Shown: positions 40,427 to 60,942, numbered from the stretch's first letter. The stretch: 64,000 bases of DNA from Catajapyx aquilonaris (GCA_000934665.2 JYFJ02001014.1:1-64000); one strand, 5' to 3'. The notes: generated by a model from the sequence alone, not told the origin. Program-made: numbers and translations.

Positions 40427-40555
40427 AGACCACAAGTGCTTTTATCTACTTGTTTATTGTAAAGTTGGCAGTTAATTGAAATACATATTTTACATTTTCC
40501 CAATACACTTGTCATCACCACAACTAGTCTCACGTCAGTGATGATGGACAGCTTT

Positions 40556-42560
40556 TTAAAAGGCTTGGACGGCACTGTAGATTGCCACAAAAAGAAGGAA
40601 CCCTCCGATATAAATGTAACGCAAGAAGCGATCTGCAGACTGGGCATAGTACTTAGCGTACGCAGCAATGCCTGATGGCTTATTTTCATCCAGCTGGAAA
40701 TAAAGAGGAATATGTTATTGCCATTGAATATGGTGAAGTAAGTGAAAGGTTTGTTTCTGATCTGGATGGATAACTTACAGGTAGCTCATCCAAAACACCA
40801 AGGCGATGAACAATCACAGTTGCCAAGAGTGGTATCCAGTTGAATGTCAGGCACACAGCAGTCCATGTGTCAATTGCCTGAAATTAATACCGTTGAAAAT
40901 GTAGAGAGTGTTACAGGCTACATTTGCATAGGCTTGAATATTGCGCTTAAAGTACTTACAGTTGAGTAACGAGTGTGTGGCAAATGGCTCTTTGCAACCA
41001 GGAAAACAATGAAGTTGCAAACCATCATCAGTGACGCCAAGCGGAGTCGGACTCCAATTTCTGATAATTAAATGCACAGTATAGTATGAAACACTGAATA
41101 TCACCAAATAGCACTTATTATGGTAGCTGATATTTCAAAACCTACCTTTTGTGTCAATGAAGAAGATAATGTAGGCAATCAGGGTGAACACAGCAGTGGG
41201 AATGAACAGTGTTGTAAGGTAGTAGCCACAGTTTCTCTTATACTTGAACGTGAATTTTAGACGTCCATACTCTTTGCCTGCAAAAAAATTGTGTCATTGT
41301 TACTCTACAGTCTACAAACAATAGATTTGAGAGCTATATACTCTCTTGTATACTCTCTTGTATAGTAATTATCCTACCTGCCACATGTTCATATTCAGTT
41401 TCATATTCAGTGTCCAGAAGTGTCAGCTCTGCTGAAGAGCCCTCCACCAGATCTCCAGAGTATGAAGGCTTATTCTCCCAGTTAATCACACAATCCTTCA
41501 GAGTCATAGAATCTATAAATCACAACAAAAGAAGCATTTAGCCATCATGAACTGACTTTCAGAACATCCACCAACTTACATGATTCCATCATGATGGGAC
41601 ACTCTGGTTTGTCAAAAGGAAAGTTCTTGTATTCGGTTAAGCACGCAAAACGAATCTGCAACTTCTGACTGTAGAGGACTGTCCCGTCCTTGTCTATCCT
41701 GAGGAAAGAGCTTGGTCCTCCTGCTTGGGTGACCTGAATGGCGTTGACAAAGAACATGTCCGCAACCCATATGCGCTTGGGGCCATCCGGAAGTGCGACA
41801 CTGTCAGTAAGTTTTGTGACTTTCGAGGTCAAACGGTAGTCCTTCCAGTGCTGCCTCATGTACAAGTCGGCGGTCACTTGCTATAGAAAAAAGGGGTAGC
41901 AGGGCGTGGACGAAGGCTGCATGAATTAATCAATTCGGGACTAATAAATAATTGATCTGCCTGCAACGAGACCGATTTAAATGCGACCTACCATAGTTAG
42001 TGGGTCGAAGTCGTGCATCGAGAGTACGTACATCGAGACGTTTACAGACACTGGTTTACCTCCTGCGGGACAAATTGGTAATTAGAGGGGGGAAACATGA
42101 CCTGGAATTAGCAGCTGTGTACCTACCTTGATTAGGGAAAATCAGCGGGTTGTAATCCTTTGGAATGATGTCATCGAACCATGATTCAATTGCAAGGGAA
42201 TTTCTGCAACACAAAATATATGTATACTTATAGTCGCTATACATGGAGGTCGAATATTTATCATTTAAATATTATTGGCATTAAGATATTTTCAAGCAGG
42301 CCTATATTATCGGGTGGAAGAATAAATTTTATTAATAATATCTCGTTACGTAAGCATGTACTTTCCTGCCTAAGACTTCGATAGACCGGTCTCAGACTCT
42401 CACTCTGTGATTTTAAAATAGGAATAAAGGCATGCTGCGATGTACTCGTATTATTCCTCTCTCGAATAACCATAGTGTGAAACCCACCAATGCAATGAAA
42501 AAATGTGACTTACCCGACTGTGAAGACCAGAAGGACGAGGAGATATGAGTGAGCTGCCAT
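40556..42560 (-). CDS. Divergent Cys-loop ligand-gated ion channel subunit 1 (GABA-A/glycine-receptor-like scaffold)
   Basis: 9 exons. Signal peptide MAAHSYLLVLLVFTVG; WFDDIIPKDYNPLIFP; ADLYMRQHWKDYRL; IWVADMFFVN; GTVLYSQK; Cys-loop CLTEYKNFPFDKPEC (C-x13-C); M1-M4 with AIDTW and ADRFLRYIY. Confidence 0.9.
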
Positions 42561-43163
42561 GGTGACTCTCCTGAGGTGTTGTCACGAACGGTGTCGGTCG
42601 AGTTGTGATATAATTCGTCTCACAGTAGCCTCAATAAATAGTCCCTGCAAAGCCACTTGCCAAGAGCTAATATTAGCTCTTGCACTTGCGCTTTTTTCCT
42701 TCTCTTTCTCAGTAGTGTTTGTGAAGCGTAACTCTTTCAATTGAATAGACTCGCCCTATGTAGTAATTCTGGCTTATATTGCTATTCATATATAGAGTCT
42801 GCAAGAACCCTTGATCTGGAGGTCACTTCTCGGAATCTTTAGTTTATCACTCGGAATCCGATAGGTTTATTGGGAATGACGTCGTGAACACATGCTCTCC
42901 TTTGAAAAAAATAATCAGGCCATAATATGATAGGCAAATATGTGCTCTGGATTACCTGGAATTCCTTATCATTGGAAGGTTCTACTGAAAATTAAACGTT
43001 AAGCATAAATGGCACCAATTTATTGGCTTCGTGGTCACTTGCATAAATTATTAGTTTGTTATTGATGGTGATTGAATTCGAAATCCTGGACCATTTGGAA
43101 ATTGGCAGAAATATATTTACATTTTGTCGAGTGTTACATCAGCAATTTACTGCAATTTCAAAA

Positions 43164-43720
43164 TCATCCCAAATAAGTAGCGAAGAACACGATAACGAAC
43201 AAAATGAACGCAACGGGATAGAGTAGATACGACACCATGTCAGCCTTTTCGGAGATTTTTCCCAAAATTGAGCGGATGCTGCTGCTCTTGTCCCATGGGC
43301 GTAGCCAGGCATGGGCAGGGGGTGGGGCTGCCCCCCCCCCCAATCTTAGGGAAATGCAGAAAATTTCTGGAGATTTCAGAAAAACTGAAGGTTTTGAAGA
43401 TTTTTCTGAGCCTTCGGGGTCAAAATAAAGTAATCTAAAACAATTGTTGCTGAGACAGTTCCTTCCGAATCTTGCTAGGCAGTCAGACGGAGGATGAGGA
43501 CAGGTGGGGCCCTCCTGCCCCCTAACTAAAATCCTGGCTACGCCCATGTCTTGTCCTGAAATTGAATGACACATTTGAATGAGAAACGTGCCCATTTTGA
43601 TCAGCCAGATCTGTCTCACCTCTTCAGCTCCACTGCTTTTCATGCAGACAACAAAGAGACTCTCGCAAACCGCTCCGAAAATAAAGCAGAAACAAAATCC
43701 CGACCAAATGTCCAGAGCCT
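43164..43720 (-). pseudogene. Truncated duplicate of the last two exons (M3-M4) of LGIC subunit 3, disrupted by a MITE
   Basis: Matches 47559-47852 (ALDIWSGFCF...; KADMVSYLLYPVAF...). Upstream exons are absent and the last exon carries an insertion. Confidence 0.88.
43294..43548. mobile_element. hAT-type MITE with 16-bp TIRs and 8-bp target-site duplication
   Basis: TCTTGTCC|CATGGGCGTAGCCAGG ... CCTGGCTACGCCCATG|TCTTGTCC. The empty site is visible in the paralog at ~47680. Confidence 0.92.
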
Positions 43721-44310
43721 TTAAATACTGCCCCCTGCGTTTGACTCTAAATAACTTCCAGGAAAATGGTAAAAAAAAGTTACACATCGTTAGAAAGCTT
43801 GTTTAAATGTATGCAACATATATGCGAGTTGTTTACCCATCTTCACTGTGTAATTTTTTATCGCACGAAGTACACGGAAAGGTGTCATTTTTTGACTAGT
43901 GGCCGATGTTACGCAGCAAAATTAATTTTTTAATAGACACTTCTCAGAAGCCAAAAAATTCCCACTCTGACCCTTGGATAGTGCAAGTCTTTGTCTATCT
44001 AATGATACATTTCAAACTTAGAAATCGCAATTTGTGTACCGTAATCATAATTAAGTTAATTGTACTACCCAGTGTTCGCAGGGGGAATTCTTTGGCCTCC
44101 GAGAAGTGTCATAAAAAAATTCATTTTGCAGCGTAATGCCGGCAACTAGCAAAAAAATTACGCCTTTCCGTGTTCTTCTTGCGATAAAAAATTACACAGT
44201 GAAGATAGGTAAACAACTCGCATCATATATGTTGTGAAAACAAGCTTTCTAACTATGTATAATTCCTGGGAGCTATTGAGAGTCAAACACAGGGGCCAAT
44301 ATTTAAAAAA
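43721..44310. mobile_element. Element with long (~170-bp) imperfect inverted repeats
   Basis: CCCCTGCGTTTGACTCT...GTTAGAAAGCTTGTTT...TGCGAGTTGTTTACC.ATCTTCACTGTGTAATTTT...CACGGAAAGG (43730-43890) recurs inverted at ~44150-44310. Confidence 0.7.
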
Positions 44311-44787
44311 TGGATAGTAGCCTACAGAGTGAAGGTCAGGATGGGTCACATTTCGTGAAAGAAGGTGGCAGAAATTACAAGAAGGGGTTGGGCAGGCAAT
44401 ACATAATGTCTCTCAAATTGAATATACACAAACATTTGTTTGATGCACAAAATCTAGGTATTATCACTTTTATTCTCAGAATGCTTTGCTTTTCACCATC
44501 TCCATCCTATCCTTAATTCCACAACTAGGTTATCTCACATGGTAAGAAGGCTGCAACAATTATACACCCATAAAAAATAGTGGGTGAGAAGTTGAGTCAG
44601 TGTGTTATGTAATAATTTTTGGGAGGGTGATAAAAAGTCTGCAAATACAACACTGAGAAAATTATTTGATGGCCCTAAATTACTTTAACTGCATCAAAGA
44701 TCCCAAGTAATTGCAGAAACATTGACCTCCATTAATAAACATGACTGCTTTTTAGGAACTGCTTAATTTTCCAGCGATATTGCATGA

Positions 44788-44878
44788 TGACGTAGAGGAA
44801 GTTGCGCCTCTACTCAACACCATTTGCGAGCTGCTGTGGTTGAGGGAACAAGAACTGATGATTTCCAGGCAGAGATGA
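44788..44878 (+). pseudogene. Duplicated 3' fragment of the CPLANE2 last exon
   Basis: Copy of 40336-40426 (EEVAPLLNTICE.LWLREQELMISRQR*) with no upstream exons. Confidence 0.85.
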
Positions 44879-45007
44879 AGACCACAAGTGCTTTTATCTA
44901 CTTGTTTATTGTAAAGTTGGCAGTTAATTGAAATACATATTTTACATTTTCCCAATACACTTGTCATCGCCACAACTAGTCTCACGGCAGTGATGATGGA
45001 CAGCTTT

Positions 45008-46971
45008 TTAAAAGGCTTGGACGGCACTGTAGATTGCCACAAAAAGAAGGAACCCTCCGATATAAACGTAACGCAGGAAGCGATCTGCAGACTGGGCATA
45101 GTACTTAGCGTACGCAGCAATTCCTGATGGCTTCTTTTCATCCAGCTGGAAATAAAGAGGAACATGTTATTGCCATTGAATATGGTGAAGTAAGTGAAAG
45201 GTTTGTTTCTGATCTGGATGGATAACTTACAGGTAGCTCATCCAAAACACCAAGGCGATGAACAATCACAGTTGCCAAGAGTGGTATCCAGTTGAATGTC
45301 AGGCACACAGCAGTCCATGTGTCAATTGCCTGAAATTAATGCCGTTGATAATGTATAGAGAGTGTTACATACAGGCTACATTTGCATAGCCTGGAAGATT
45401 GCGTTTAAAGTACTTACAGTTGAGTAACGAGTGTGTGGCAAATGGCTCTTTGCAACCAAGAAAACAATGAAGTTGCAAACCATCATCAGTGACGCCAAGC
45501 GGAGTCGGACTCCAATTTCTGATAATTAAATGCACAGTATAGTATGAAACACTGAATATCACCAAATAGCACTTATTAGAGTAGGTGATATTTCAAAACC
45601 CACCTTTCGTGTCAATGAAGAAGGTGATGTAGGCAATCAGGGTGAACACAGCAGTGGGAATGAACAGAGTTGTAAGGTAGTAGCCACAGTTTCTCTTATA
45701 CATGAACGTGAATATTAGACGTCCATACTCTTTGTCTGGAAAAAAATGTGTCATTGTTACTCTATACAGTCTACAAGCAATAGATTTGAGAGCTCTATAC
45801 TCTCTTGTATAGTAATTATCCTACCTGCCACAGGGATCTTGGTTGTTTCATATTCAGTGTCCAGAAGTGTCAGCTCTGCTGAAGAGCCCTCCACCAGATC
45901 TCCAGAGTATGAAGGCTTATTCTCCCAGTTAATCACACAATCCTTCAGAGTCATAGAATCTATAAATCACAACAAAAGAAGCATTTAGCGATCATGAACT
46001 GACTTTAAAAGCATCCACCAACTTACATGATTCCATCTCGATCGGACATTCTGGTTTGTCAAAAGGAAAGTTCTTGTATTCGGTTAAGCACGCAAAACGA
46101 ATCTGCAACTTCTGACTGTAGAGGACTGTCCCGTCCTTGTTTATCCTGAGGAAAGAGCTGGGTCCTCCTGCTTGGGTGACCTGAATGGCGTTGACAAAGA
46201 ACATGTCCGGAACCCATATGCGCTTGTGGCCATCCGGAAGTGCGACACTGTCAGTAAGTTTTGTGACTTCCGAGGTCAAACGGTAGTCCTTCCAGTGCTG
46301 CCTCATGTACAAGTCGGCAGTCACTTGCTATAGAAAAAAGGGGCAGCAGGGCGTGGACGAAGGCCGGATTAATTAATCAATTCGGGACAAATTGATCTGC
46401 CTGCAACGAGACCGATTTAAATGCGACCTACCATAGTTAGTGGGTCGAAGTCGTGCATCGAGAGTACGTACATCGAGACGTTTACAGACACTGGTTTACC
46501 TCCTGCGGGACAAATTGGCAATTAGAGGGGGAAAACATGACCTGGAATTAGCAGCTGTGTACCTACCTTGATTAGGGAAAATCAGCGGGTTGTAATCCTT
46601 TGGAATGATGTCATCGAACCATGATTCAATTGCAAGGGAATTTCTGCAACACAAAATATGTACTTATAGTCGCTACATGGAGGTCGAATATCATTAAAAT
46701 TGGCATTTAGATATTTTCAAGCAGGCCTTCTATACCGCGTGTAAGAATAAATTTTATTAATAATATCTCGTTACGTAAGCATGTACTTTCCTGCCTAGAC
46801 TTCGATAGACATGCCTCAGTCTTTGATTTTAAAATAGGAATAAAAGCATGCTGTGCTGCATTCCTCCCATGAATATAGCCACATAGTGTGAAACCCACCA
46901 ATGCAATGAAAAAATGTGACTTACCCGACTGTGCAGACCAGAAGGACGAAGAGATATGAGTGTGCTGCCAT
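45008..46971 (-). CDS. Divergent Cys-loop LGIC subunit 2 (recent paralog of subunit 1)
   Basis: Same 9-exon structure as 40556-42560; IWVPDMFFVN; CLTEYKNFPFDKPEC. Reading frame and splice sites appear intact. Confidence 0.9.
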
Positions 46972-47558
46972 GGTGACTCTCCTGAGGTGTTGTCACGAAC
47001 GGTGTCAGTCGAGTTGTGATATAATTCGTCTCACAGTAGCCTCAATAAATAGTCCCTGCAAAGGCACTTGCGCTTTTTTTTTTCCTTCTCTTTCTCAGTA
47101 GTGTTTGTGAAGCGTAACTCTTTCAATTGAATAGACTCGCCCTATATAGTAATTCTGGCTTTTATTGCTATTCATATAGATTATAGACTCTGCAAGAACC
47201 CTTGACCTGGAGGTCACTTCTCGGAATCTTTAGTTTATCACTCGGAATCCGATAGGTTTATTGGGAACGGCGTCGTAAACACATGCTCTCCTTTGAAAAA
47301 AATAATCAGGCCATAATATGATAGGCAAATAATTATGTGCTCTTGATTACCTGGAATTCCTTATCATTGGAAGGTTCTACTGAAAATTAAACGTTAAGCA
47401 TAAATGATACCAATTTATTGGCTTCGTGGTCACTTGCATAAATTATTAGTTTGTTATTGATGGTGATTCAATTCGGAATCCTGGACCATTTGGAAATTGG
47501 CAGAAATATATTTACATTTTGTTGAGTGTTACATCAGCAGTTTACTGCGATTTCAAAA

Positions 47559-50311
47559 TCATCCCAAATAAGTAGCGAAGAACACGATAACGAACAAAAT
47601 GAACGCAACGGGATAGAGTAGATACGACACCATGTCAGCCTTTTCGGAGATTTTCCCCAAAATTGAACGGATTCTGCTGCTCTTGTCCTGAAATTGAATG
47701 AAACATTTGAATGAGAAACGTGGCCATTTTGATCAGCCAGATCTGTCTTACCTCTTCAGCTCCGCTGCTTTTCATGCAGACAACAAAGAGACTCTCACAA
47801 ACCGCTCCGAAAATAAAGCAGAAACAAAATCCCGACCAAATGTCCAGAGCCTGTGATTAAATGGCGAATAAATCAAGCGAAAAGTGCGCAAAATAAGCGA
47901 CATGAACTGTACCGTCGGATGTGACGTGTGTGGCAAGTGATTCTTCATTTCCGACGAAAGCACAGCCGCACACAGCAAAAGCACGGAGCTCATCAAAATC
48001 CGAGGTATTGGAACTGAATCATAATAAAGCTCATTAAAAAATTCATTTCGATTACTCTTCAGTCTCATTATTTGGGACACTGACCTGACGAACTCATGAA
48101 GAATGTGAAGTACTCTAGCATGACTATGGTGGTCAAAGGCATTATGATAGCTCGGATGTAATAGCTGCTCAATCGGTTCCACAGCATTGTCAGTCCCAAA
48201 CGGCCATATTCACCTTTGTTAAATTTAAAAATGACATATCCCATAAGTTAATTTGAAATAATTGCAACAGATAAATTGACACGCACCTGTGTGGAGACTC
48301 AAAATGGTGCTGCTTTGTCGATGTCCCACAAATAAGAGTGACTTAACATACATGCCAGTTTCGGTAAATCCGACTGCATTTTCACCTCTCCATGCAATGA
48401 GTATTCGCGACGTGTTCATTCCAACTGTAAACAGCACAATTTGTTAAACGACATGTCAGAATAACAGAATTTGGTCGCTACTTACAAGATTCGAAATCCA
48501 AGTAACACTCCAAGGAATCAAACGGGAACGAGTGGTCTAACGGTTTGCACTGGAACTTCACTGTTATTCTAAAATGATATTGTGCATGAATATTAGCATA
48601 TATTATTAGCACTAATTTGTTGCATAATATAAGATACGAAATAAATACTTTTGACTGTATAATATTGTTCCCTCAGGATCTATTGAGAGAAATGATTCTC
48701 CTTCTATTTTGCTTGTAGAATATGAATTTGGTATAAACAGATCCGGGATCCAAATGTGGTCTTCCATTTTCTTAACACGTAAATTGGATTCCAGCTTTGT
48801 ATTTTGACGGGTCAACCTGGGGTCAACCCATGCCTGACGAAAGTACATGTCTGCAGTCATTTCCTATACGAAAAAAATCAAATGAGACTTTAAAATCACT
48901 TCTAGGAGTATTGTAAATGTTTCACAATAGCAGTGCAATTGCATGAAAACGTGAATTAAAGCCAAGCAGTGAAAAATATGCGGAGCGAGTTAGCACACCC
49001 ACAGCTTGCACCTACATGTTTTATGTACTATTTAAAATGTAATTTCAGAAAGCTATTGATTTGCATTGCTTTCCCTTCAAAGTTGAGTAAGAAAATAATG
49101 TACGTCTGCCATTACTTTTATCATCAGACAGCACTTTTAGAATGCTGTATAACAGAAGAAAAAGCAGGACATTTTTCAAGCAGAAATTATGGTATATTTC
49201 ACATTCCTTTGCTAAAATTACCCTCGTGCGACATTCATTCACTGAATAAATAACTAAGTCAAAATTGCACTGCTTCCTCACTTCTAACGATGGAGCAGTG
49301 AGTCTAATGAACTCAGATCTCATGTTTTATAATGTGAAAGGGCATTATAATGATAGCGTTTTAAACAAATCCCTTTGAAGTTAACTGAAAGCAATTGATT
49401 GTTCCACTGGACTTGGTAAATTTAGGCGAAAGGTATACCTGCCACGTGGTTCACATGATTATCATGAACAAAGAACAGTCACTAACAATAATTAAGTTTG
49501 GTGACGTTAGACTATATTAATTTACAGTCAGGTAAAAAAAAGATGTACAATTATACTTGCGACAAGCCGACCGGGGTTTTTAAAACGCCCTTCAATTGAA
49601 CCCAAAATTAGGTGAATGACTTCCTCTTGACCCACTAATGGGATCTGTGAACCCAGTTCGTTGGATATAGTTCTAGACATTTGGAGCACGGAAGTGGTTC
49701 ATTTTACACCCTGCTATTTGAAGCGTGCATACCATTAGCAAGCGTTGAAGAGTATGGTACCTAAAGTCTTATGAGAGACAGGTTATAGCTTGGGTTATAG
49801 CATCGGTGTAGATCAGTGCAAGCACATTGATTCTTCGGCTTTAAAGCTTGACAAATGGCCTCGCAATAGAAGCGGACTTAAGTGGTTTATGAATGAGCTT
49901 CTCTTGGAATACAGGCTGCACCTTTCAAAGAAGCAATTACCGGTCTACTCCATGCCACTGACACGAAATTATCATAACTCACATTGCTGAACGTGCAATA
50001 TCCGTAGAAGGAAATCACGTACAAGGAGACGTCAACATGGACCGGACCTGCAGAGAGGTTGGGGCTGTATAACTATATGGCTATAAATCCAAACCACTCA
50101 TTGTCATACCTCCGTACTGATCCGGAGCCAATAGCGGATTGTAGTCTTTGGGTATAATAGTTTCAAACCAATCTCTCTCAGCAGCGACTCTGTCAGATTA
50201 AAAATTAAGTAAGTGGAGAAAAAAAACCTCTGCATGGAACCGGAAAGTATAAGGAAAGGTTGGTCTCTACCTGGCGACTAGAATGCAGAGGAGCAATTTG
50301 GTGGCAGCCAT
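47559..50311 (-). CDS. Divergent Cys-loop LGIC subunit 3
   Basis: Exons from 50311 (MAATKLLLCILVAR), ~50190-50110 (DWFETIIPKDYNPLLAP), ~50047-49984, ~48863-48648 (ADMYFRQAWVDPRL...IWIPDLF...GTILYSQK), ~48568-48486 (CKPLDHSFPFDSLEC), then loop C, M1, M2 (PIPRILMSSVLLLCAAVLSSEMKNHLP), ALDIW and M4 to the stop at 47559. Confidence 0.88.
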
Positions 50312-52155: not shown

Positions 52156-54813
52156 ATGAAGACCTTTGTCCGACTTTTTCTCGCCACGTTGCTGCTTGGA
52201 TGCTGCTGGTAAATGACTCTTGTTTTGAACTCTTGTGACGCGACAAATTAATTTTATGAAGGGGATCAAAGAAGCAACCTTTACTTTGTGAAGGAAGAGA
52301 ATATTTTGCGCTTTCACCAGGTTGATTTTTAATCTCTTAAAATATTACGAGCAGTTTTTTTTGTCACACATGTATATTCCGTCTTTCTGGCAAAAAGGTT
52401 GCCAATTATGTCGCAATATTTCCAATCATCTGTCTTGGCCGAGTCCCCAAATGGCATGAAAAGATACATCCATTAAATTTTAACAAGTACAAAGCACAAA
52501 AATGTTGTCAGAATTGTACAAAATTATTACAGTATAATTATTGGACAAAATTGTAGTACACCTACAAACACATGAAATCACTTCTGCAACAGATAAATAA
52601 CATGACATTCAGTGGCCACATTCCATAGTGTTTCTTCTTCATACTCGATATATTTTTATTTTAAAAGGGCCAGAAATAATGACCTTCCCCAAGGACTCAT
52701 TCCGGATGATTACAACAAGAACGCTATGCCTGTTGACAAATCAGGTAAGCACAATAAAATAAAATAAACATTACAACCAAAACATTGCAAGATGATGGTG
52801 CCCATAATATTATCTCGTAATTAATGTAGCACATATAAGGAGTTAATTAACTCTAAGTGTTCATTTCACTGATTCGTTGTATACGCAGGGATGGTCCAGG
52901 TGAAAGTGTCTGCCACGATTCTGGCAGTCAGAGATTTCGATCCTGCTTCCTTGGTGAGTGAACCCGATGCATTTGCAGGAGCTCTTTTCGACAGGCAATT
53001 GAATTAAAAGGTCCGGACTGTCTTCTCTCTCCTCTTCTTCTTTTTTTGTGGCACCTATAGGAAGTAACTGCCGACTTGCAGATGAGCGAGAGCTGGTTGG
53101 ATTCTCGTCTGAATGCAAGCAATGTCACAATTACCAGCGGGCAACATGCGGTCTGGACCCCTGACTTGCGCTTCCCTAATGCAATTAAGCTTTATTACCC
53201 TGGAGATCATTACGACCAAATCATGATCGGAATTAATGGATCTATCACCTTTGATCAAAAGTAAGGAGAGGGCTATATATTTTGCAGCTTACGCTTTGAA
53301 ATATTTTGAGTGTTTTCCGGTATAATTTAAGTGGTTTGTAACTCAATATTCTCACTGTGGTTGCACTTTTCCCTATCGATTTTTTGTTTCATATTTGCAT
53401 CGAATTTGCCTCAACTTCTGACGACTCGATTAGGTTTTTTCAAAAAAAAAATATATGCGTAGTACAGTGTGAACTTTATTTTTTGTCACTTTTTGAGATA
53501 AGATCTGCACTGAAAATATTTTAGAGTGTATACTTTTTGATGTACTAATTCCATTTGTTTGCTGTGTCAGGGTCTTGGTACGAGTCCCTTGCAAAACTTA
53601 CCTGACGCGCTTTCCTTACGATGAACCTCACTGTAACATTACAGTGGAGCCGTGTAAGTAAATGGCCACATTTGTCAACAGCAATGAAAAAATTATTATT
53701 ATTATTATTCGCCTAAACAATTGTGCGTATTTTCTATTTTGTTTTATAGCTGTGTACAGGAGTGACAGGGTGAATTTGACTTGGGAGAAGCCAGTGACAA
53801 TGGCAGAAGACATTCGCTCACAAGCAGCCCCAGACATGATCTTGAAATCTGTTAATGGATCCGGTGTCAACGGCAGTAAGTTCAGCGTCAGTTACTGTAC
53901 ACGCATTCCCTCGTAACATACGCAATTGCTTCATCCAACAGATGTGACAAAGAGCAGATTGGTGATTACGATGGACTTTTCTCGTGCTTATGGATTCTAC
54001 GTACAAACTGTATTTCTACCAGTGGCCATCTTCACTCTCATTGCGTGTTTGTCATTCTTGCTCGATTCGCAAGGTAAATACCATATGTCATAGTCTGTCT
54101 GCCGTTTTATAGGCTGTTGAACTTTCACTCCTGATAAAGAGATAAACTCTTCTGATCATGTGAGTTACGACCTTGACTTGTCCGTCGGTTCATGCTGCTA
54201 ATTTGATTCGAGCTAATCATCAGCTACACTTAAGATTATCTCTTTTTCATCCGCAGAACCGATGCCTCGAATTCTTCTGATCACCATGATGATGATGTGT
54301 TTGATCAATATTTCTCAGAAGGTTCGGGTCGACCTCCCCAAAGCCTCATACTGCACGGTAATATAGCTTCTGATTGCAACACCCACCCATAAAAACCTAG
54401 ACATCTATTGACCTTTAACTCACTGTGACAGTGAGGTTGCTTCCAATGACAGTCGGCCGTAAGAATGAAACACAATCATGTCATTCCTTCCAGGGATTAG
54501 ACGTATGGACTGGCGCATGCTTCACCTTCATGACCATTGCTATGATTGAGACCGTTCTGGTCAAGAAATTTGGCGGAAGTTCAGGTCAAAGCTCTGGCGA
54601 AGAAGGTGGTGGCGAGGAGGTAACTTCGCTTGTAATAATAATTATTCATTTTTATTATAATAATAACAATTTTGTTTCCTTTCTTAGAGTAAGTCTGGCG
54701 CACAGGGAGCCATGCAAAAAATGGCCAAATGGGGTGATCGGATTCTGATCATTGCCTATCCCATCGGCTTTGTCGTTTTCTCCGCCATTTACTGCGCTGT
54801 TTACTTGAGCTAA
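52156..54813 (+). CDS. Divergent Cys-loop LGIC subunit 4
   Basis: Exons from 52156 (MKTFVRLFLATLLLGCC), ~52669-52745 (LIPDDYNKNAMP), ~52889-52953, 53061-53260 (WLDSRL...VWTPDL...GSITFDQK), ~53571-53653 (CKTYLTRFPYDEPHC), ~53750-53875, ~53942-54072, ~54257-54357 (M2), ~54494-54619 (GLDVW), 54688-54813 (GDRILIIAYP). Confidence 0.88.
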
Positions 54814-55204
54814 ACGTCTCGTGCAACGGCCTGGAATGCGATTAAATGAAGAATACGTTCCTAGAATCCATTCACTGTTTTTTTCCAGTACGCTGCAGAT
54901 TACAGTCACAAAAAAATTTGGCAGCAATGTTGGTTACATAAAGCGAAACTGTCAGCTCCTATGATTTATTGGTGTTTAATAAAGAGTTCTGATAAATGTA
55001 TTGGTGTGAAAATAAATTGCGCAACTTTTTCGTGAAACTACTTTTTAAAAATTGCCTTCTCCTTGTATAGTCTCTGGATTATGCAGAAGTGGCGCTTCAT
55101 AGCCACCAATAACAAACTGCAATCGCATTCAATGATGTGGGTCACAGTGATTTATCTGTGTCGCCGTGTGCAGGCAGCAGCAGCAGCAGAGTAGCAACCG
55201 GAGC

Positions 55205-57872
55205 ATGGCTCAAGTTTTTCTACTTGTGTTAGGATGTTTTCTGCTTGCTGCCAAGTAAGCAACGTTTTACACTATATACTGTCCCTAAATGGTTCATTTA
55301 AACAGCACCTATATGTAACGGAACCTGTTCCGGAACCAGCTCACTATTTGGTTGCTAAGCACTCTGTTGCCCAGATGTTCTGTGCCAACAAAATTGAATG
55401 ATGTTGACTCGTTATTTTACTTGGTGTCAACATAATGGGACTATTGTTGACATGAAATGAGATGAGTTGGAATAATTACTCTGCCGATAGCAACCAAATA
55501 TATAGTGAGCTAGTTCCGGAACGGGTTCGGTTTGTGTAAATGGCACCTGCACATAGGTCATACTGGTATATATTTTTTGCAGCTTAATTTTTATGTCGGT
55601 GTGGTTACTTACAACTGCGTCTAAATGGGACGAAGGAAGTCGCAACTGTGCTGACGATCTTGAACGAGTCATTGACATACGACAGATTACAATATCATGC
55701 TTTGTTACGGATTGCTTTGAGGCGGAACCGAAGTAAGAGTTAATTATGGCATTAAAATTACCTGCAGCACTACATTCCACAATAATTGCAGCGCAACCGT
55801 TGGAGCACCTCTTGTAAGCTGGTTTGATGGGTTTATTCCTAATGAATATAACAAGTATTTATCACCTGCAGCAAATAACAGTAAGTACTATTACCAGATG
55901 CTTCATAGTAGACAATACAGTATTAATTTCATTTTAAATGTGATTTTCTCACTTGCGTTGTGTTGGTTGCAGCACCAGTGGATGCCAAAGTGTCTGCGTA
56001 CGTCCTGAGTCTGAGCGAATTCGATGAAATTAATTCCGTAATAATTATGCAACATTAAAAAACAATGCACACGAACTGCATATTATTGTGGGCACCAAGC
56101 GCAATAATGTATGGCTGATATCAGCACAACACTAACAGTTTCTTTTCTCCATTCTTTTGCAAGGCAGTTGATGTCGTGATGTACATGAGGCAGCATTGGA
56201 CGGACCATCGCTTGAACTCGAAGTTCACGAAAGCGAATGGCAGCGTGTCTTCTCGAATAGGTCACGAAATGGTGTGGATACCTGACCTGTTCGTTCAGAA
56301 TGCTGTTCTGGTCAGAAAGCCGGATGGACCCAACGCGTTCTTAAAGGTGGAACCCGATGGATCTATCACTTACAGCCAAAAGTACGTACTCATCAGTAGG
56401 CCTACTGATGAGAAAACCTGGAATTGTCCAATTGTCAAATTGCAAAAAGTATTAAACGGAACTAATAAATTCTTGTAAATGACAAGGGGGAAGAAATTTG
56501 ACTTTCCTAAACTTCTTTGGCATTGGCCACTTCATATGCAAATGAAATTTCTTTTTATCTAATTTTTGTTTTAATTTTTGGTAGTTTAATTGATGCCATG
56601 CTCTTGTATGTATACATAATACCGCATAATGTGTCTCTCTTTTCCAGAGTAAATGTGCGAGTTCCTTGCGTAACGGAATACCATCACTTTCCATTTGATA
56701 CACTACGTTGCGGAGTAGTATTTGAGTCATGTATGCGCATTTGGATCCTTTATAATCGCCTGATATACTCTGTTCATTGCTATAACTACTCTTTCAGTTG
56801 CATTAACGACTGGTGAGTTCTCGCTGTCGTGGTTGTCAAAGCCGGGTTATTCAGACCATATCGAGGAGAAAACGTTACTGCCATTGAGGCTACTTAATTT
56901 TATTCATGAGAACAGAAGCTTCATCTCTGAGGGAGGTAATTTGGTATTTCACATGTCTTTAAAAACTGAGCTGGCAGTAACCTTCCTTAATTTATTTAAC
57001 GCAGGAAGGTACGATCAGGTGTCAATGGAATTCATATTCGCCAGGGCAATTGGCAGCTACTTCAAAAGCGGTATTCTACCTGCTATTGGCTTCGTAGCAG
57101 TAGGATACGTCACTTTCTTCTTGAGTCTCAAAGGTAAGGCGACATAATTACGCATTTTTATAAAAAAACGGGCATATTAACCACAAATATTATCCAATTA
57201 AGATGTGACCTCTCGTATTGAACTTTGCTCCATGGTGATCCTGGCGAGTGCCTTAGTGTCTATCAACTTGAGATCTCAACTGCCACGGACGTCCTTCGCG
57301 GTAATCTGCATAATGTCAAGGGAGACACATTTTCCTTGTTCATAATTTAATTGCACCACATCACATTCCAACACTCAACTTTGCAGGCTATCGACATATG
57401 GTCATTAGTGACGTCAGGATTCATTTCACTCTCCATCTGGGAGAGCGCATTGGTGCATAATCTGCACGCCAACAAATCGGTAAGATATTGCTTATTCCTG
57501 TTTATTATCTCCATCAGTAAGGGTGGTCATACCTCACACGTGTACCCAGTTCATTAGCTGTACTGAACTTATATAGATTATTTCAGAAAGAAAAAAATTA
57601 ATCACACCTTGACTGATTTTTCTCAAGCTGGCAAATCATTTCAATAATTACACTTGAAATTTTCACTCTAAAGATTTAGGTTAATGGAGATTTGGGCAGT
57701 GAACCACCCTGTACATTCTGGGGAAACAAGTGCGTGCGATCTTAAATGTCATTCCCTTTCTTTATTGCCCATTTTCCAGGAAAGGCGACATGTTCCGGAT
57801 CGAATTTGTCGCGTCCTCTACCCTGTTTGTCTGGTCATCGTAGGCGCTGTCTTGTACGGAGTGTATACGTAG
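55205..57872 (+). CDS. Divergent Cys-loop LGIC subunit 5
   Basis: MAQVFLLVLGCFLLAA; SWFDGFIPNEYNKYLSP; MYMRQHWTDHRL; VWIPDLFVQN; GSITYSQK; CVTEYHHFPFDTLRC; M2 TSRIELCSMVILASALVSINLRSQLP; AIDIW; PDRICRVLYP; stop at 57872. Confidence 0.88.
55317..55532. repeat. Imperfect ~45-bp inverted repeat (MITE-like) in LGIC5 intron 1
   Basis: AACGGAACCTGTTCCGGAACCAGCTCACTATTTGGTTGCTA vs TAGCAACCAAATATATAGTGAGCTAGTTCCGGAACGGGTTCGGTT. Confidence 0.7.
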
Positions 57873-58913
57873 GACACAGCCTCAATTATTAGCGGCGGAC
57901 GAACACATGGCCTGCTTCCTAGGCAGGAGTCTCTCCCATCGATACATTTCATCATGCCGAATCAACATAGGTTCCTTTTGTAATTGGCCCATTAGGCGAT
58001 TCATTCAGCTCATCAAGTTATTACCATATTCATGGGGGAGGCTCCATCAGGAGTGGGCATACTTTCATAAACTTTTTGTGCGCGTGTATTGGGAAGCCAC
58101 CGCCATATGTTATTCAGCAATTTGAAGCAGGCATGTTAACTGTACGAATTATGGCAATAAAGGTACACCCTGAAATAACAGGAGAGAAAAATATTTTTTT
58201 TAGTGAGGTCTTCTGGACTGCATGTAACTGCACACATGTTTTCAGAAGATAGTGTTGCTCTAGTTGAAGGCTCTTACTTATTGATATAACATTGGAATTC
58301 CTGCTGGTCATACAATCCAAATACAGCTACTGTATATCGACGTTTCCCTACACTTGCTGCTAAGTACCGTATTTATTTTATCAATATAACATGCATGGAT
58401 GCCAATAATGTTACCACTCAGCAGAATTTCCAAACATTTAATTTGAGCCAAGTATAAGACTGCTGTATTTTTTTACATACTGTACCAAAACATAAAATGA
58501 ACTGCAGATTTTCAATCTAGAACTTTGCATAAATGTATTTCAAGGATGTGACATCATAATATCACAGTAATCTAATTATTTTCTTGCACCTTGAACCAAC
58601 TTATATGAAGCCTGTCAAGCAAGAGGACCTCCCACTTTATCAGATGTTCATTGTGGACAGCACTGAACACTCCCACCGCAACCCTCCTCTTCCTCCAGTG
58701 ACAGGGTCGTCAACTCCCTAATCGAAGAGGCACAGCCCAGCTTCCCAAATATCGTTGGTGATTGCAGTGATGAGCATGAAGGCCATGGGCGGGCCAAATG
58801 AACATAAAGAAATTGGCGTGTTGTCTTTGTCTCATACACAGTTGGGCTGCAGCCAAACTTTGGGACGTTAGCAACCACACTCCACGCTCTGGAGGAAAAG
58901 GGTGTGGTCCACC

Positions 58914-60581
58914 ATGGAAATGGCCAAGTGCTTCCTGGCTGGGATACTCCTGCTGTCATCCGGGTGAGATGGTGGATACAGCAATAATGGTGCCACGTTG
59001 CATACTTTTGTGTATAATTTCTCAGGGTGCATACTGCGGAGAATTTTTGGTACGATGCTTTCATTCCTGCCACGTACAATCCACTGAGAAGTCCTGCTTT
59101 TGGAGGTAAGTTGTGCATCACTAGTATAATGATGAGATGAAGTGAGCAAGTTCTCGCTATTATTTGCAGGGTCAGTCCAAGTGGGCATAGTTGTGTGGAT
59201 CCTCTCATTTCATGACTTTGACATTGACAGTGCGGTAAGGCATAGTTTGCTACATGTGATCCGAGTCATTCTAAAATCTAATTTCACTGCAGCAATTAAG
59301 TGCAGACCTGTACTTGGGTCAGTACTGGAATGAACCTAGACTGACTTCAGATAAGACAAGGGTTGCAGGGCAGTTGATACTACCCCATGGTGAGAAGTAC
59401 CTGTGGATACCCGACACATTCATCCCAGAAGCTGTTCAATCCAAGAAATCTGATGGACCCAATTCCCTCGTGAGGATTGACCCTGATGGGACTGTGTTTT
59501 ACAGTCAGAAGTGAGTCAATACATGAAACATTGCGTCAGTCTGTTGTCATTATAATTTGTATTACATTGCAGGCTCCAGGTTCGAATTTTGTGTGACATT
59601 TCATATGTCAAGTTTCCATTCGATGAAGTCTGCTGCACAATGCCATTTGAATCCTGTAAGTGTAACGTATCAGCAGTGGTCTTGTCTTACTCAAATAACT
59701 TAAACATTTCAGTCTCAATGAATACCTCTCGGTTACACTACTATTGGAGGGAAGTTGGAGGTAATCTCACCAAAGCTGAAGATGTACGGCCAGACATGCG
59801 GCTGATAAGGACAGAACAAGCAGCCCACAATGTCTACATGGCTGCAGGTAAGTGTACTTTTCAATGTCAAATGCTGCAATTACAGCCTGCTCGATTTTCA
59901 GATGAGTACAGTAGGTTGGAGCTGATATTATTCCTGAGACGATCACCAACATACTACGTTCACTCACTGATGCTTCCGCTTGGTGCATTTGTAGCACTAA
60001 CCTATTGCACTTTCTTCATGAGCATCAAGTCCCCCACACCAAGACTCCTCTTGAATTCCGCAATGCTTCTGTCAGCTCTTTACGTCACAATGGAGATGAA
60101 AAATCACCTGCCGCACACTCCTTCTTGGACGGTACGAGTTATGAAAAAATAATGTGGATAATCCATCTCAAATTTGCAATGATATTTTTAGGGCATGGAC
60201 ACATGGACTGCCGCATCCTTTATCTTCATGATGACAGCAATGGCTGAAACCATTCTGGTCATATGTGGAAATGAACCTGACATGTCCGAGGTAGTAATGT
60301 GCACTAAAACACTAGAAACCCATGCACCATTTGCTCGCATACATTGCACACATTTTGAGTATCCTGGAGCGAATGAGGCTTAGAAGTTCAGCAATTTTTT
60401 TACAATTTTCAATTCAGTTCAGCAATTTACTTATAATAATGCTTTATTACAGGAGAAGCCTGGAAAAGTCAAGTCCTTCATACAGAAGAATGCCGGAAGG
60501 GCAGACAGAGTATTTCGTATCGGGTACCCAATCTCCTATGCCCTGTTCATCATCATATACTGCGGAGCTTACCTTGGTTAA
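58914..60581 (+). CDS. Divergent Cys-loop LGIC subunit 6
   Basis: MEMAKCFLAGILLLSSG; FWYDAFIPATYNPLRSP; ADLYLGQYWNEPRL; LWIPDTFIPE; GTVFYSQK; CDISYVKFPFDEVCC; M2 TPRLLLNSAMLLSALYVTMEMKNHLP; GMDTW; ADRVFRIGYP; stop at 60581. Confidence 0.88.
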
Positions 60582-60942
60582 ATTCATCTCAATGTGCACA
60601 AATAAAATACCAGAGATCTGATAAATTCCCAGGAAATATATTTCATAAAATGGTTACAAATGTGATAACTTTCTCCCGTATAATGAAACACCCAATACAA
60701 ACATGTCAACCAAGTCACCCGTTTAAAAGATGCAAAATATCTTTACCATACTGAATATTATAATATTGTAAATATAGTCTTACTTCCATAGCTCAAAATC
60801 ACAGAAGGCTTATCAGGTTTGTTGAGGAAGTTCAGGTCATTTTGGCAATTCAATCGAGCAGTCCTTTTCAGCTCCTTCATAAGTTTGAGTTATGGTAGCT
60901 CAACCATGTAAATACTTGGATTATTATCATTTTGCTGCTGTT

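What the first reader, a model, noticed from the sequence alone, without database searches (positions are those of the whole stretch)
40970..60131. Non-canonical M2 pore helices with complementary charges at the 2' position
Seen: aligning M2 from the 0' Arg to the conserved LP at 22'-23' needs no gaps. LGIC1/2 GV-R-LRLASLMMVCNFIVFLVAKSHLP; LGIC3 IP-R-ILMSSVLLLCAAVLSSEMKNHLP; LGIC4 MP-R-ILLITMMMMCLINISQKVRVDLP; LGIC5 TS-R-IELCSMVILASALVSINLRSQLP; LGIC6 TP-R-LLLNSAMLLSALYVTMEMKNHLP. None has the anion-selective PAR motif or the cation-selective -1' Glu. The 2' residue is R, R, L, L, E, L; 6' is L, L, V, M, M, A; 9' Leu is lost in LGIC1/2 and LGIC4. Established: in GlyR/GABA-A (PARVGLGITTVLTMTT) 2' is small, 6' and 13' are Thr, and 9' Leu is the gate. 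Inference: homopentamers would likely be occluded or have unusual selectivity. The 2' Arg / 2' Glu pairing suggests obligate heteropentamers encoded by this one locus, or non-conducting receptor/accessory subunits.
Basis: partly seen in the sequence, partly recalled or inferred. Interest (0 to 1): 0.8.

Follow-up and report, generated by a model that had tools for sequence, protein, structure and literature searches.

The report
Six compact receptor-channel genes, odd pores
The window holds six neighbouring, intact and transcribed genes for unusually small receptor-channel subunits of the GABA/glycine receptor superfamily, whose pore helices are almost entirely greasy, so their ion conduction cannot be predicted from known rules.

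Summary
Six tandem Cys-loop receptor genes (359-381 aa, all splice sites GT/AG) lie at 40556-60581.

- **Transcription:** spliced contigs of one public run reproduce all 15 displayed junctions of my LGIC3, LGIC4 and LGIC6 models, including the M2 exons.
- **Pore:** none has the PAR motif or a -1' Glu. 2' is R,R,L,L,E,L and 6' is L,L,V,M,M,A.
- **Machinery kept:** the Cys-loop, pre-M1 Arg, M1 Pro, 0' Arg, 19' Lys/Arg, 22'-23' Leu-Pro and the M3 Asp-x-Trp are all present. The M3-M4 loops are very short.
- **Relatives:** the six form one clade. A metagenome protein and two firefly hypothetical proteins are its nearest relatives, and it is distinct from Insect Group I (pHCl-2). No close orthologue was found.
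- **Derived charges:** the outgroups carry Met or Leu at 2', so the Arg and the Glu look like separate derived changes.
- **Constraint:** LGIC1 and LGIC2 are a young duplicate pair (Ka/Ks 0.49) with nearly identical membrane domains and a divergent loop C.

The idea of complementary-charge heteropentamers remains untested speculation. LGIC4 lacks three binding-site motifs, so heteromers in general are plausible. The scan's earlier notes hold nothing similar on other DNA.

Verdict: a new variant of a known kind, of moderate interest.

The parts
40556..42560 (-). LGIC1, 9 exons, 366 aa: 42514-42560, 42127-42203, 41992-42062, 41580-41880, 41378-41512, 41146-41277 (M1), 40960-41060 (M2), 40779-40877 (M3), 40556-40693 (M4 and stop)
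   Evidence: Model with all splice sites GT/AG. PF02931 on the ECD exon at E 6.9e-20. Closest solved chains are GABA-A alpha1/rho1 and GlyR.
40978..41049 (-). LGIC1 M2, 0' Arg to 23' Pro; 2' Arg (codon CGC), 6' Leu, 9' Val
43167..43802 (-). Orphan copy of the M3 and M4 exons of LGIC3, carried along by the tandem duplication that made LGIC1. It has no upstream exons and a roughly 255-base insertion (43294-43548) in its intron.
   Evidence: HMM hits to model positions 265-324 and 323-363. blastn: 40336-43293 = 44788-47688 at 93.5%, and 43549-43720 = 47681-47852 at 97.1%.
45008..46971 (-). LGIC2, 9 exons, 366 aa, 95% identical to LGIC1: 46925-46971, 46567-46643, 46432-46502, 46027-46327, 45825-45959, 45604-45735, 45418-45518 (M2), 45231-45329, 45008-45145
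45436..45507 (-). LGIC2 M2, protein-identical to LGIC1 M2 (one synonymous base difference in the exon)
47559..50311 (-). LGIC3, 10 exons, 359 aa: 50271-50311, 50110-50189, 49983-50047, 48649-48863, 48486-48568, 48287-48424, 48085-48213 (M1), 47913-48013 (M2), 47752-47850 (M3), 47559-47687 (M4)
   Evidence: Four of its 9 introns are seen as joints in spliced contigs.
47931..48002 (-). LGIC3 M2; 2' Leu, 6' Val, 9' Leu
   Evidence: Both flanking introns are seen in contigs.
52156..54813 (+). LGIC4, 10 exons, 362 aa: 52156-52208, 52668-52744, 52889-52953, 53061-53260, 53571-53653, 53750-53875, 53942-54073 (M1), 54257-54357 (M2), 54494-54619 (M3), 54688-54813 (M4)
   Evidence: Nine of 9 introns are seen in one 1349-base spliced contig at depth 50.8.
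54268..54339 (+). LGIC4 M2; 2' Leu, 6' Met, 9' Met, 13' Asn
55593..57872 (+). LGIC5, 10 exons, 381 aa: 55593-55732 (first exon uncertain, no clear signal peptide), 55792-55880, 55973-56037, 56164-56381, 56648-56730, 56798-56935, 57005-57133 (M1), 57203-57300 (M2), 57387-57479 (M3), 57780-57872 (M4)
   Evidence: No joint of this gene is among the 15 shown.
57214..57285 (+). LGIC5 M2; 2' Glu (codon GAA), 6' Met, 9' Leu
58914..60581 (+). LGIC6, 9 exons, 362 aa: 58914-58963, 59026-59105, 59170-59234, 59293-59510, 59573-59655, 59713-59847, 59902-60131 (M1 and M2 in one exon), 60192-60290 (M3), 60453-60581 (M4)
   Evidence: Two of its 8 introns are seen in contigs. The TMD best matches ELIC among solved chains at E 8e-6.
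60042..60113 (+). LGIC6 M2; 2' Leu, 6' Ala, 9' Leu, 13' Tyr

Best explanation
The locus is a lineage-specific tandem family of six compact Cys-loop receptor subunit genes. They descend from the GABA-A/GlyR/GluCl (anion-channel) branch of the pentameric ligand-gated channel superfamily, probably in an arthropod.

Shown:
- All six genes are intact.
- At least LGIC3, LGIC4 and LGIC6 are transcribed and spliced as modelled.
- The young pair LGIC1/LGIC2 has a nearly unchanged membrane domain, while loop C changes.
- All six keep the parts that couple ligand binding to gating: the Cys-loop, pre-M1 Arg, M1 Pro, 0' Arg, 19' Lys/Arg, 22'-23' Leu-Pro and the M3 Asp-x-Trp.
- Five of six keep binding-site motifs (loop B Glu-Ser-aromatic in 5; loop D Arg and loop C aromatic in 4 each), which I recall as typical of amino-acid-gated receptors.

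Inferred:
- They assemble into ligand-gated pentamers.
- Their pores have a hydrophobic lining that extends down to 2' and 6', instead of the usual polar lower half.
- With the anion-type M1-M2 linker length, a 0' Arg and no -1' Glu, the default expectation is a weakly anion-preferring or poorly conducting pore gated by hydrophobic dewetting.
- The 2' Arg of LGIC1/2 and the 2' Glu of LGIC5 are separate derived substitutions at the cytoplasmic mouth. They tune charge preference or conductance of the receptors that contain them.
- LGIC4 has lost three binding-site motifs and probably works only as a partner subunit.
For: Superfamily membership:
- PF02931 matched 6 of the 14 LGIC ORF pieces submitted, covering LGIC1, 3, 4, 5 and 6. 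The LGIC4 piece scored 17.9 bits, below the 26-bit cut-off.
- Best solved relatives of the ECD are GABA-A alpha1/rho1 and GlyR, at E about 4e-12.

Intact and transcribed:
- Complete CDS of 359-381 aa, with GT/AG at every one of the 51 introns modelled and shared intron phases.
- All 15 displayed joints of run X1 coincide with modelled introns: LGIC3 4, LGIC4 9, LGIC6 2.

Constraint on the LGIC1/LGIC2 pair:
- Ks 0.054, Ka 0.026, Ka/Ks 0.49, introns 7.1% different.
- 17 residue differences, 5 of them at residues 205-211 (loop C).
- The M2 exon has 1 synonymous change and the M3 exon has 0.

Structure-function residues:
- The linker has 8 residues between the M1 aromatic pair and 0', as in PAR-type proteins P0018 and P0021.
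- Binding-site motifs: loop D Arg in LGIC1, 2, 3, 5; loop B Glu-Ser-Tyr/Phe in LGIC1, 2, 3, 5, 6; loop C Glu-Tyr in LGIC1, 2, 3, 6; none of them in LGIC4.

Phylogeny: the six are monophyletic (99/98), sister to P0010 (96/92), then to firefly P0009/P0033 (80/86). The outgroup 2' residues are Met, Leu and Leu.
Against: - No function was measured and no pentamer was modelled.
- The assumption that homologous positions 2', 6', 9', 13' and 16' face the lumen is carried over from solved relatives. A conserved 5' Ser/Thr (6 of 6) and a small 10' residue (Cys, Ala or Ser) could mean a slightly rotated helix with a more polar lining.
- An acidic -4' residue in 4 of 6 genes resembles, from recall, the cytoplasmic ring of cation channels. 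It argues against a simple anion preference.
- PF02932 matched 0 of the 8 membrane-domain ORF pieces at E <= 0.01. The pieces are short.
- Ka/Ks of 0.49 is only moderate constraint.
- Transcription of LGIC1, LGIC2 and LGIC5 was not shown.
- The run laid is not on record as RNA. That it is cDNA-like is my inference from its spliced contigs.
Confidence: 0.5

Rival explanations
1. One reading: the locus encodes obligate heteropentamers in which 2' Arg subunits (LGIC1/2) pair with the 2' Glu subunit (LGIC5), so that complementary charges make a usable pore.
For: - Opposite charges sit at the same homologous position within one gene cluster.
- Clustered paralogues that co-assemble are known for GABA-A and nicotinic receptor genes (recalled).
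- LGIC4 lacks binding-site motifs, so at least one subunit probably needs partners.
Against: - The outgroup state at 2' is hydrophobic, and Arg and Glu arose in different branches. That looks like independent change, not co-evolution.
- A salt-bridged Arg/Glu ring at the narrow end would be expected to close a pore rather than open it (inference).
- No cell-level co-expression data exist.
- No orthologues were found with which to test correlated conservation.
Confidence: 0.1
2. Relocated selectivity filters. LGIC1/2 form anion-selective channels through a ring of 2' Arg, and LGIC5 forms cation-selective channels through a ring of 2' Glu. The locus would then hold paralogues of opposite polarity.
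For: - Charged rings near the cytoplasmic mouth set charge selectivity in this superfamily (as cited in passages of PMC4569296 and PMC10338036).
- 2' lies one helical turn above -1' (geometry).
- The substitutions are derived and lineage-specific.
Against: - I know of no natural channel shown to use 2' Arg or 2' Glu in this way. My two relevant literature searches returned none, but they were not aimed at this point.
- LGIC1/2 also carry a -4' Glu, and LGIC5 keeps the 0' Arg.
- Untested.
Confidence: 0.15
3. Non-conducting or modulatory subunits. The pore is permanently dewetted, and the proteins act as ligand sensors, as accessory subunits of channels encoded elsewhere, or outside neurotransmission.
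For: - The lining is hydrophobic from 2' to 16' in most paralogues.
- C. elegans 'diverse group' orphans gave no currents, and lgc-43 and lgc-45 lack PAR and are expressed in hypodermis (PMC9962794, passages).
- Alpo4 has a closed 16' Met ring and remains an orphan (PMC10338036, passages).
- Insect Group I subunits act in non-neuronal tissues (PMC4938653, passages).
Against: - The gating-coupling residues and the membrane domain are conserved. This is expected if gating still matters.
- The upper halves of nicotinic-type pores are also hydrophobic and still conduct (PMC10338036, passage on 9', 13', 16').
Confidence: 0.2
4. Decaying gene copies without function.
For: - There is one orphan M3+M4 fragment in the cluster.
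- The LGIC5 first exon lacks a clear signal peptide.
Against: - Six complete reading frames with canonical splice sites persist despite 26-37% identity between paralogues.
- Spliced transcripts exist.
- Ka/Ks is 0.49 with a nearly invariant membrane domain.
Confidence: 0.03

Closest known systems
Uncharacterised firefly proteins KAF5285472.1 (Lamprigera yunnana, P0009) and KAK4877967.1 (Aquatica leii, same 90% cluster as P0033), and metagenome protein P0010
   Same: - Nearest relatives on the tree.
- Compact (331-392 aa) with short M3-M4 loops.
- No PAR: the linkers end in Ile-Gly-Arg, Val-Ala-Arg and Met-Pro-Arg.
- Hydrophobic 2' (Leu, Leu, Met).
- Loop B and loop C motifs shared.
   Different: - Only 17-36% identical to the window's exon pieces in alignment A1.
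- P0009 and P0033 have Gly at 6' and shorter M2-M3 ends.
- None has a charged 2' residue.
- All are unstudied.
Insect Group I ligand-gated chloride channels (pHCl-2/Hodor CG11340, secCl CG7589, CG6927; Tribolium CLGC1-3)
   Same: - Very divergent members of the anion-channel branch.
- Copy number varies between lineages.
- Tandem clusters occur: three Tribolium genes lie within 10 kb (PMC2064938, PMC4938653, passages read).
   Different: - A separate, well-supported clade (100/99) on my tree. P0017 and P0020 are named pH-sensitive chloride channel 2.
- They are 500-540 aa with long M3-M4 loops.
- Their linkers end in Pro-Pro-Arg or Pro-Gly-Arg, and 2' and 6' are polar.
GABA-A / glycine receptor subunits, including non-PAR subunits such as GRD, LCCH3 and GlyR beta
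   Same: - Best solved matches for the ECD.
- Shared loop D Phe/Tyr-x-Arg-Gln-x-Trp, 0' Arg, 15' Ser, 19' Arg/Lys and 22'-23' Leu-Pro.
- Subunits lacking PAR are held to be heteromer partners (PMC4569296, PMC2064938, passages).
- GlyR beta carries a hydrophobic 6' residue (recalled).
   Different: - No PAR.
- Hydrophobic 2' and 6', and no 13' Thr.
- An M3-M4 loop of about 10-35 residues instead of 70 to over 100.
ELIC (Erwinia pentameric channel) and other bacterial homologues
   Same: - Best solved match for the LGIC6 M1-M2 region at E 8e-6.
- Similar overall size and a minimal M3-M4 loop.
- After P0009's own relatives, the profile search listed only distant 224-626 aa proteins, two of them named as bacterial.
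   Different: - The window genes have a true Cys-loop, introns, signal peptides and a GABA-A-like ECD.
- Their M1-M2 linker is two residues longer than ELIC's.
- The bacterial proteins lie in another clade.
Orphan invertebrate receptors with odd pores: Alpo4 (Alvinella) and the C. elegans 'diverse group' LGC-42 to LGC-45
   Same: - Orphans with non-standard pore or selectivity motifs.
- No ligand has been found despite screening (PMC10338036, PMC9962794, passages).
   Different: - Alpo4 is nicotinic-like, with a -1' Glu, 2' Thr and a long ICD.
- The nematode proteins were not compared by sequence here.

Membership tests
[quoted passage not shown] | Extracellular Neur_chan_LBD domain (PF02931) | tested here: met
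   Hits on ECD pieces of LGIC1, 3, 5 and 6 at E 7e-20 to 1e-8. LGIC4 is weak (17.9 bits against a 26-bit cut-off). LGIC2 was not submitted but is 95% identical to LGIC1.
[quoted passage not shown] | Two Cys 13 residues apart enclosing Phe-Pro-x-Asp | tested here: met
   Present in 6 of 6 models. LGIC4 has Phe-Pro-Tyr-Asp.
[quoted passage not shown] | Four membrane helices with pre-M1 Arg, M1 Pro, M2-M3 Pro and M3 Asp-x-Trp | tested here: met
   Gapless alignment with relatives from M1 to M3. PF02932 itself matched 0 of 8 short exon pieces at E <= 0.01. The relatives P0009 and P0033 carry PF02932.
Anion-selective GABA-A/GlyR/GluCl-type channels | PAR motif (-2' Pro, -1' Ala, 0' Arg) | tested here: not met
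   0 of 6 have it. 0' Arg is present in 6 of 6. -1' is V,V,P,P,S,P and -2' is G,G,I,M,T,T.
Anion-selective GABA-A/GlyR/GluCl-type channels | Anion-type M1-M2 linker length | tested here: met
   8 residues between the M1 aromatic pair and 0', as in PAR-type P0018, P0021 and P0034.
Anion-selective GABA-A/GlyR/GluCl-type channels | Small or polar 2', Thr/Ser at 6', Thr at 13' | tested here: not met
   2' is R,R,L,L,E,L; 6' is L,L,V,M,M,A; 13' is I,I,V,N,L,Y.
Cation-selective nicotinic/5-HT3-type channels | -1' Glu (intermediate ring) and 20' acidic ring | tested here: not met
   -1' Glu in 0 of 6. 20' is S,S,N,V,S,N. A -4' acidic residue is present in 4 of 6.
Insect Group I (pHCl-2, secCl, CLGC) | Groups with named Group I proteins on a tree | tested here: not met
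   P0017 and P0020 (named pH-sensitive chloride channel 2), together with P0007 and P0011, form their own clade (100/99) away from the window clade.
Bacterial ELIC/GLIC-type channels | No Cys-loop disulfide, no introns, prokaryotic context | tested here: not met
   Cys-loop present, 8-9 introns per gene, eukaryotic neighbours (PEX11), and a separate clade.
Functional ion channel of any selectivity | Ligand-gated current | not testable with these tools
   Needs electrophysiology.

The most novel reading that the evidence does not exclude
One locus holds natural paralogues of a pentameric channel with an all-hydrophobic pore, in which the only charge near the constriction is a ring at 2'. That ring is Arg in LGIC1/2 and Glu in LGIC5. 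The selectivity filter would then have moved one helical turn up from the classical -1'/-2' site, and the paralogues would have opposite ion polarity, or would combine into a charge-paired heteromer.
Probability: 0.12. Interest if true: 0.7.

Novelty: new variant of a known kind. Interest (0 to 1): 0.42.

Why it matters
Rules for predicting whether a pentameric receptor passes anions or cations rest on the PAR motif and the -1' Glu. Rules for gating rest on a polar lower pore and a 9' Leu. This clade breaks all of them while keeping the gating machinery and binding-site motifs, and it is compact, with almost no intracellular domain.

If the channels conduct, they are a natural test of where selectivity and hydrophobic gating can reside, and their small size makes them attractive for structural work. 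If they do not conduct, they add to the growing set of orphan receptors with non-channel or accessory roles.

The clade is absent from the insect receptor catalogues I read (PMC2064938 and PMC12309072, passages only).

Tried and rejected
- **Whole-genome search:** no genome is held for this window.
- **Sequence searches for orthologues:**
  - The exhaustive HMMER search with the LGIC6 ORF (198 aa, which includes two in-frame intron translations) gave 23 proteins at E <= 0.001 and 0 at <= 1e-10. The best had 30% identity.
  - The word-index search with the LGIC1 ECD exon gave 0 hits from 28 candidates.
  - The profile A1 gave 15 proteins at E <= 1e-10 among 7567 candidates. These were P0009 itself, P0033, P0034 and 12 distant proteins, two of them named as bacterial.
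  - The profile A2 of the six ECD exons gave 1 protein, P0065, which is compact but has a different M2.
  - Conservation of the 2' Arg and Glu in orthologues therefore could not be tested.
- **ESM Atlas** with the LGIC6 M1-M2 exon returned only small unnamed clusters of short fragments.
- **PDB search** with the LGIC3 loop C/M1 exon (42 aa) gave only weak hits, E >= 0.14.
- **Sequencing runs:** no RNA holder was listed. One run of unknown kind was listed. It turned out to hold spliced contigs. Its depths were not used to rank genes. Parts without cover (for example 49176-49619 and 50508-51839) are not evidence.
- **Earlier notes of this scan:** nothing near this place, nothing by sequence, and only two bacterial channel notes by words.
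- **Structure prediction and complex prediction** were not run.
- **Considered and rejected:**
  - A one-residue register shift of M2 that would make the lining polar. The 0' Arg, 15' Ser/Thr, 19' Lys/Arg and 22'-23' Leu-Pro all align with canonical receptors without a gap.
  - Horizontal origin from bacteria. The genes have a Cys-loop, introns and a GABA-A-like ECD.

Full report
**What is there.** The window is eukaryotic; no genome is held for it. Between 40556 and 60581 lie six genes of the Cys-loop receptor superfamily. Three are on the minus strand (LGIC1, LGIC2, LGIC3) and three on the plus strand (LGIC4, LGIC5, LGIC6).

A profile built from my six models found no further copy anywhere in the 64 kb. 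The one exception is an orphan fragment at 43167-43802 that matches only the M3 and M4 exons. Pfam's ligand-binding-domain model matched ECD pieces of LGIC1, 3, 5 and 6 at E 7e-20 to 1e-8, and LGIC4 weakly. None of 8 short membrane-domain pieces reached E 0.01 for PF02932.

**Gene models.** I derived exon borders from the sequence and from an enumeration of frame-compatible GT/AG pairs.
- All six give complete reading frames of 366, 366, 359, 362, 381 and 362 residues.
- Every one of the 51 introns has GT/AG, and intron phases are shared.
- LGIC1/2 have lost the intron in front of the Cys-loop exon, and LGIC6 has lost the intron between M1 and M2.
- Five genes begin with a short hydrophobic signal-peptide exon. 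The first exon I assigned to LGIC5 has no clear signal peptide and is uncertain.

**Transcript support.** One public run holds 30% of the sampled words of 52500-60700. Its kind is not on record, but its contigs are spliced.

All 15 displayed joints, after the tool's stated cut offsets, fall exactly on my introns. They have GT..AG ends on the plus strand and CT..AC on the minus strand: four in LGIC3, nine of nine in LGIC4 (one 1349-base contig), and two in LGIC6.

The joints include both introns flanking the M2 exons of LGIC3 and LGIC4, and the intron upstream of the M1+M2 exon of LGIC6. Fifteen more joints were not shown.

**The observation.** The M2 strings are as quoted. In a MAFFT alignment with PAR-type relatives and bacterial homologues, the six genes need no gap from the M1 Pro through the 0' Arg to the 23' Pro. 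HMMER aligns LGIC6 M2 to ELIC without an internal gap.

| Position | LGIC1, 2, 3, 4, 5, 6 |
|---|---|
| -4' | E,E,V,E,D,S |
| -2' | G,G,I,M,T,T |
| -1' | V,V,P,P,S,P |
| 0' | R in all |
| 2' | R,R,L,L,E,L |
| 5' | S,S,S,T,S,S |
| 6' | L,L,V,M,M,A |
| 9' | V,V,L,M,L,L |
| 13' | I,I,V,N,L,Y |
| 15' | F,F,S,S,S,T |
| 16' | L,L,S,Q,I,M |
| 19' | K,K,K,R,R,K |
| 20' | S,S,N,V,S,N |
| 22'-23' | LP in all |

No gene has PAR or a -1' Glu. The anchors at 0', 15', 19' and 22'-23' match canonical anion-channel subunits. For that reason I reject a one-residue register shift that would otherwise give a more polar lining. The M1-M2 linker has the length of PAR-type proteins and is two residues longer than ELIC's.

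**Are they working genes?** The paralogues are 26-37% identical, except LGIC1/LGIC2 at 95%.

That pair arose by a tandem duplication: 40336-43293 matches 44788-47688 at 93.5% identity. The duplication also copied the last two exons of LGIC3, which is the origin of the orphan fragment.

Between LGIC1 and LGIC2, Ks is 0.054, Ka is 0.026 and Ka/Ks is 0.49, and introns differ by 7.1%. Of the 17 residue differences, five fall at residues 205-211 in loop C. The M2 exon has one synonymous change and the M3 exon has none. The pattern is a constrained channel domain with a changing binding loop.

All six keep the Cys-loop, pre-M1 Arg, M1 Pro and M3 Asp-x-Trp.

Binding-site motifs:
- The loop D Arg is present in LGIC1, 2, 3 and 5. 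It aligns with the corresponding Arg of GABA-A alpha1.
- The loop B Glu-Ser-Tyr/Phe is present in LGIC1, 2, 3, 5 and 6.
- The loop C Glu-Tyr is present in LGIC1, 2, 3 and 6.
- LGIC4 has none of the three.

That these motifs mark amino-acid-type agonist sites in GABA-A beta and glycine receptors is recalled, not tested here.

**Where they belong.** Solved structures closest to the ECD are GABA-A alpha1/rho1 and glycine receptors, at E about 4e-12. The M1-M2 part of LGIC6 scores best against ELIC at E 8e-6.

The four database searches (figures under Tried and rejected) found no close orthologue. The best hit to the LGIC6 ORF was 30% identical.

I built a tree of the six models and 15 hand-picked hits. 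I left out short fragments, the concatenated nematode models P0001, P0004, P0005 and P0008, the nicotinic-like P0019 and P0023, and other rows.
- The six are monophyletic (99/98).
- They are sister to the metagenome protein P0010 (96/92).
- Next come two firefly hypothetical proteins, P0009 and P0033 (80/86).
- Proteins named pH-sensitive chloride channel 2, which is Insect Group I, form a separate clade (100/99), as do the bacterial homologues.

The tree is unrooted.

The sister proteins share the compact size, the short M3-M4 loop, the lack of PAR and a hydrophobic 2' (Met, Leu, Leu). The 2' Arg of LGIC1/2 (codon CGC) and the 2' Glu of LGIC5 (GAA) are therefore most simply two independent derived changes.

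Earlier notes of this scan call the genome arthropod-like or springtail-like. I did not test that, though the nearest named relatives are insect proteins.

**How it most likely works.** I read these as ligand-gated pentamer subunits descended from the anion-channel branch. They keep gating and, mostly, binding machinery, but their hydrophobic lining extends to the cytoplasmic end of the pore.

The steps in order of support:
- Shown: real, intact, expressed, and constrained in the membrane domain.
- Inferred: lumen-facing positions are taken by homology. The default selectivity is weakly anionic, from the anion-type linker length, the 0' Arg and the absence of a -1' Glu. Gating is dominated by hydrophobic dewetting.
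- Inferred: the 2' charges tune selectivity or conductance, and LGIC4 acts as a partner subunit.

The -4' acidic residues and the conserved 5' Ser/Thr are loose ends for this reading.

Complementary 2' charges as the basis of obligate heteromers is not excluded, but nothing supports it beyond the co-occurrence of the charges in one cluster. The outgroup states argue for independent origin.

Heteromers in general are plausible. Passages I read support the wider context:
- Subunits lacking PAR are commonly taken to be heteromer partners (PMC4569296, PMC2064938).
- Orphans without PAR exist and may be silent or non-neuronal (PMC9962794).
- Orphan pores can be oddly constricted (PMC10338036).
- Divergent tandem clusters with non-neuronal roles exist in insects (PMC4938653).

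For all these papers I read search listings and found passages only, not whole texts or supplements.

**Novelty and verdict.** The superfamily and the existence of orphans with atypical pores are known. This compact clade combines four unusual features:
- no PAR and no -1' Glu
- hydrophobic 2' and 6'
- paralogue-specific 2' Arg or Glu
- almost no intracellular domain

It is not in the insect catalogues I consulted (PMC2064938 and PMC12309072, passages), and it has no close relative in the libraries searched. I rate it a new variant of a known kind, of moderate interest. The decisive work is electrophysiology and pentamer modelling, which these tools could not provide.

Noticed in passing
window 43167-43802 (-), with 43294-43548: An orphan copy of the M3 and M4 exons of LGIC3 lies between LGIC2 and LGIC1. 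It is left over from the 3.4-kb tandem duplication. Its intron carries a roughly 255-base insertion absent from LGIC3.
   Followed up: yes
LGIC1 41378-41512 vs LGIC2 45825-45959: The exon encoding loop C has 10 differences in 135 bases, about the intron rate. Exons 2, 3 and M3 have 0 differences in 247 bases. Five of the 17 residue differences sit within 7 residues of loop C. This could reflect diversifying selection on the binding site, gene conversion elsewhere, or both.
   Followed up: partly
LGIC1/2 exon 41580-41880 / 46027-46327; LGIC6 exon 59902-60131: Two independent intron losses occurred within the cluster. The intron before the Cys-loop exon is lost in LGIC1/2, and the M1/M2 intron is lost in LGIC6. 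Two LGIC6 introns (59656-59712, 59848-59901) are in frame and stop-free, which creates a misleading 198-aa ORF.
   Followed up: yes
window 48864-49982: Intron 3 of LGIC3 is 1119 bases, whereas the other introns in the cluster are 54-459 bases. Its content was not examined.
   Followed up: no
window 57698-58182: One contig of run X1 (485 bases, depth 8.4) runs unspliced from inside the last LGIC5 intron through the last exon into the 3' flank. It could be a retained intron, pre-mRNA or another transcript start.
   Followed up: no
window 54877 and 56868: Contigs of run X1 differ from the window by a TT insertion after 54877 (LGIC4 3' flank) and by G>C at 56868 (LGIC5 exon 6). These are probably polymorphisms.
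   Followed up: no
window 60943-61497 (-) and 39685-40053 (+): The cluster is flanked by a PEX11 exon (PF05648, E 4e-35) and by a small-GTPase-like exon (weak Roc match, E 0.002, below the cut-off).
   Followed up: partly
window 29655-30789 (+) and 33476-36017 (-): Long ORFs here look, by eye, like the lyase and monooxygenase parts of peptide-amidating enzyme genes, in opposite orientation. This was not tested with any tool.
   Followed up: no
window 22200-22202, 23327: Four N bases lie next to a proline-codon-rich simple repeat.
   Followed up: no
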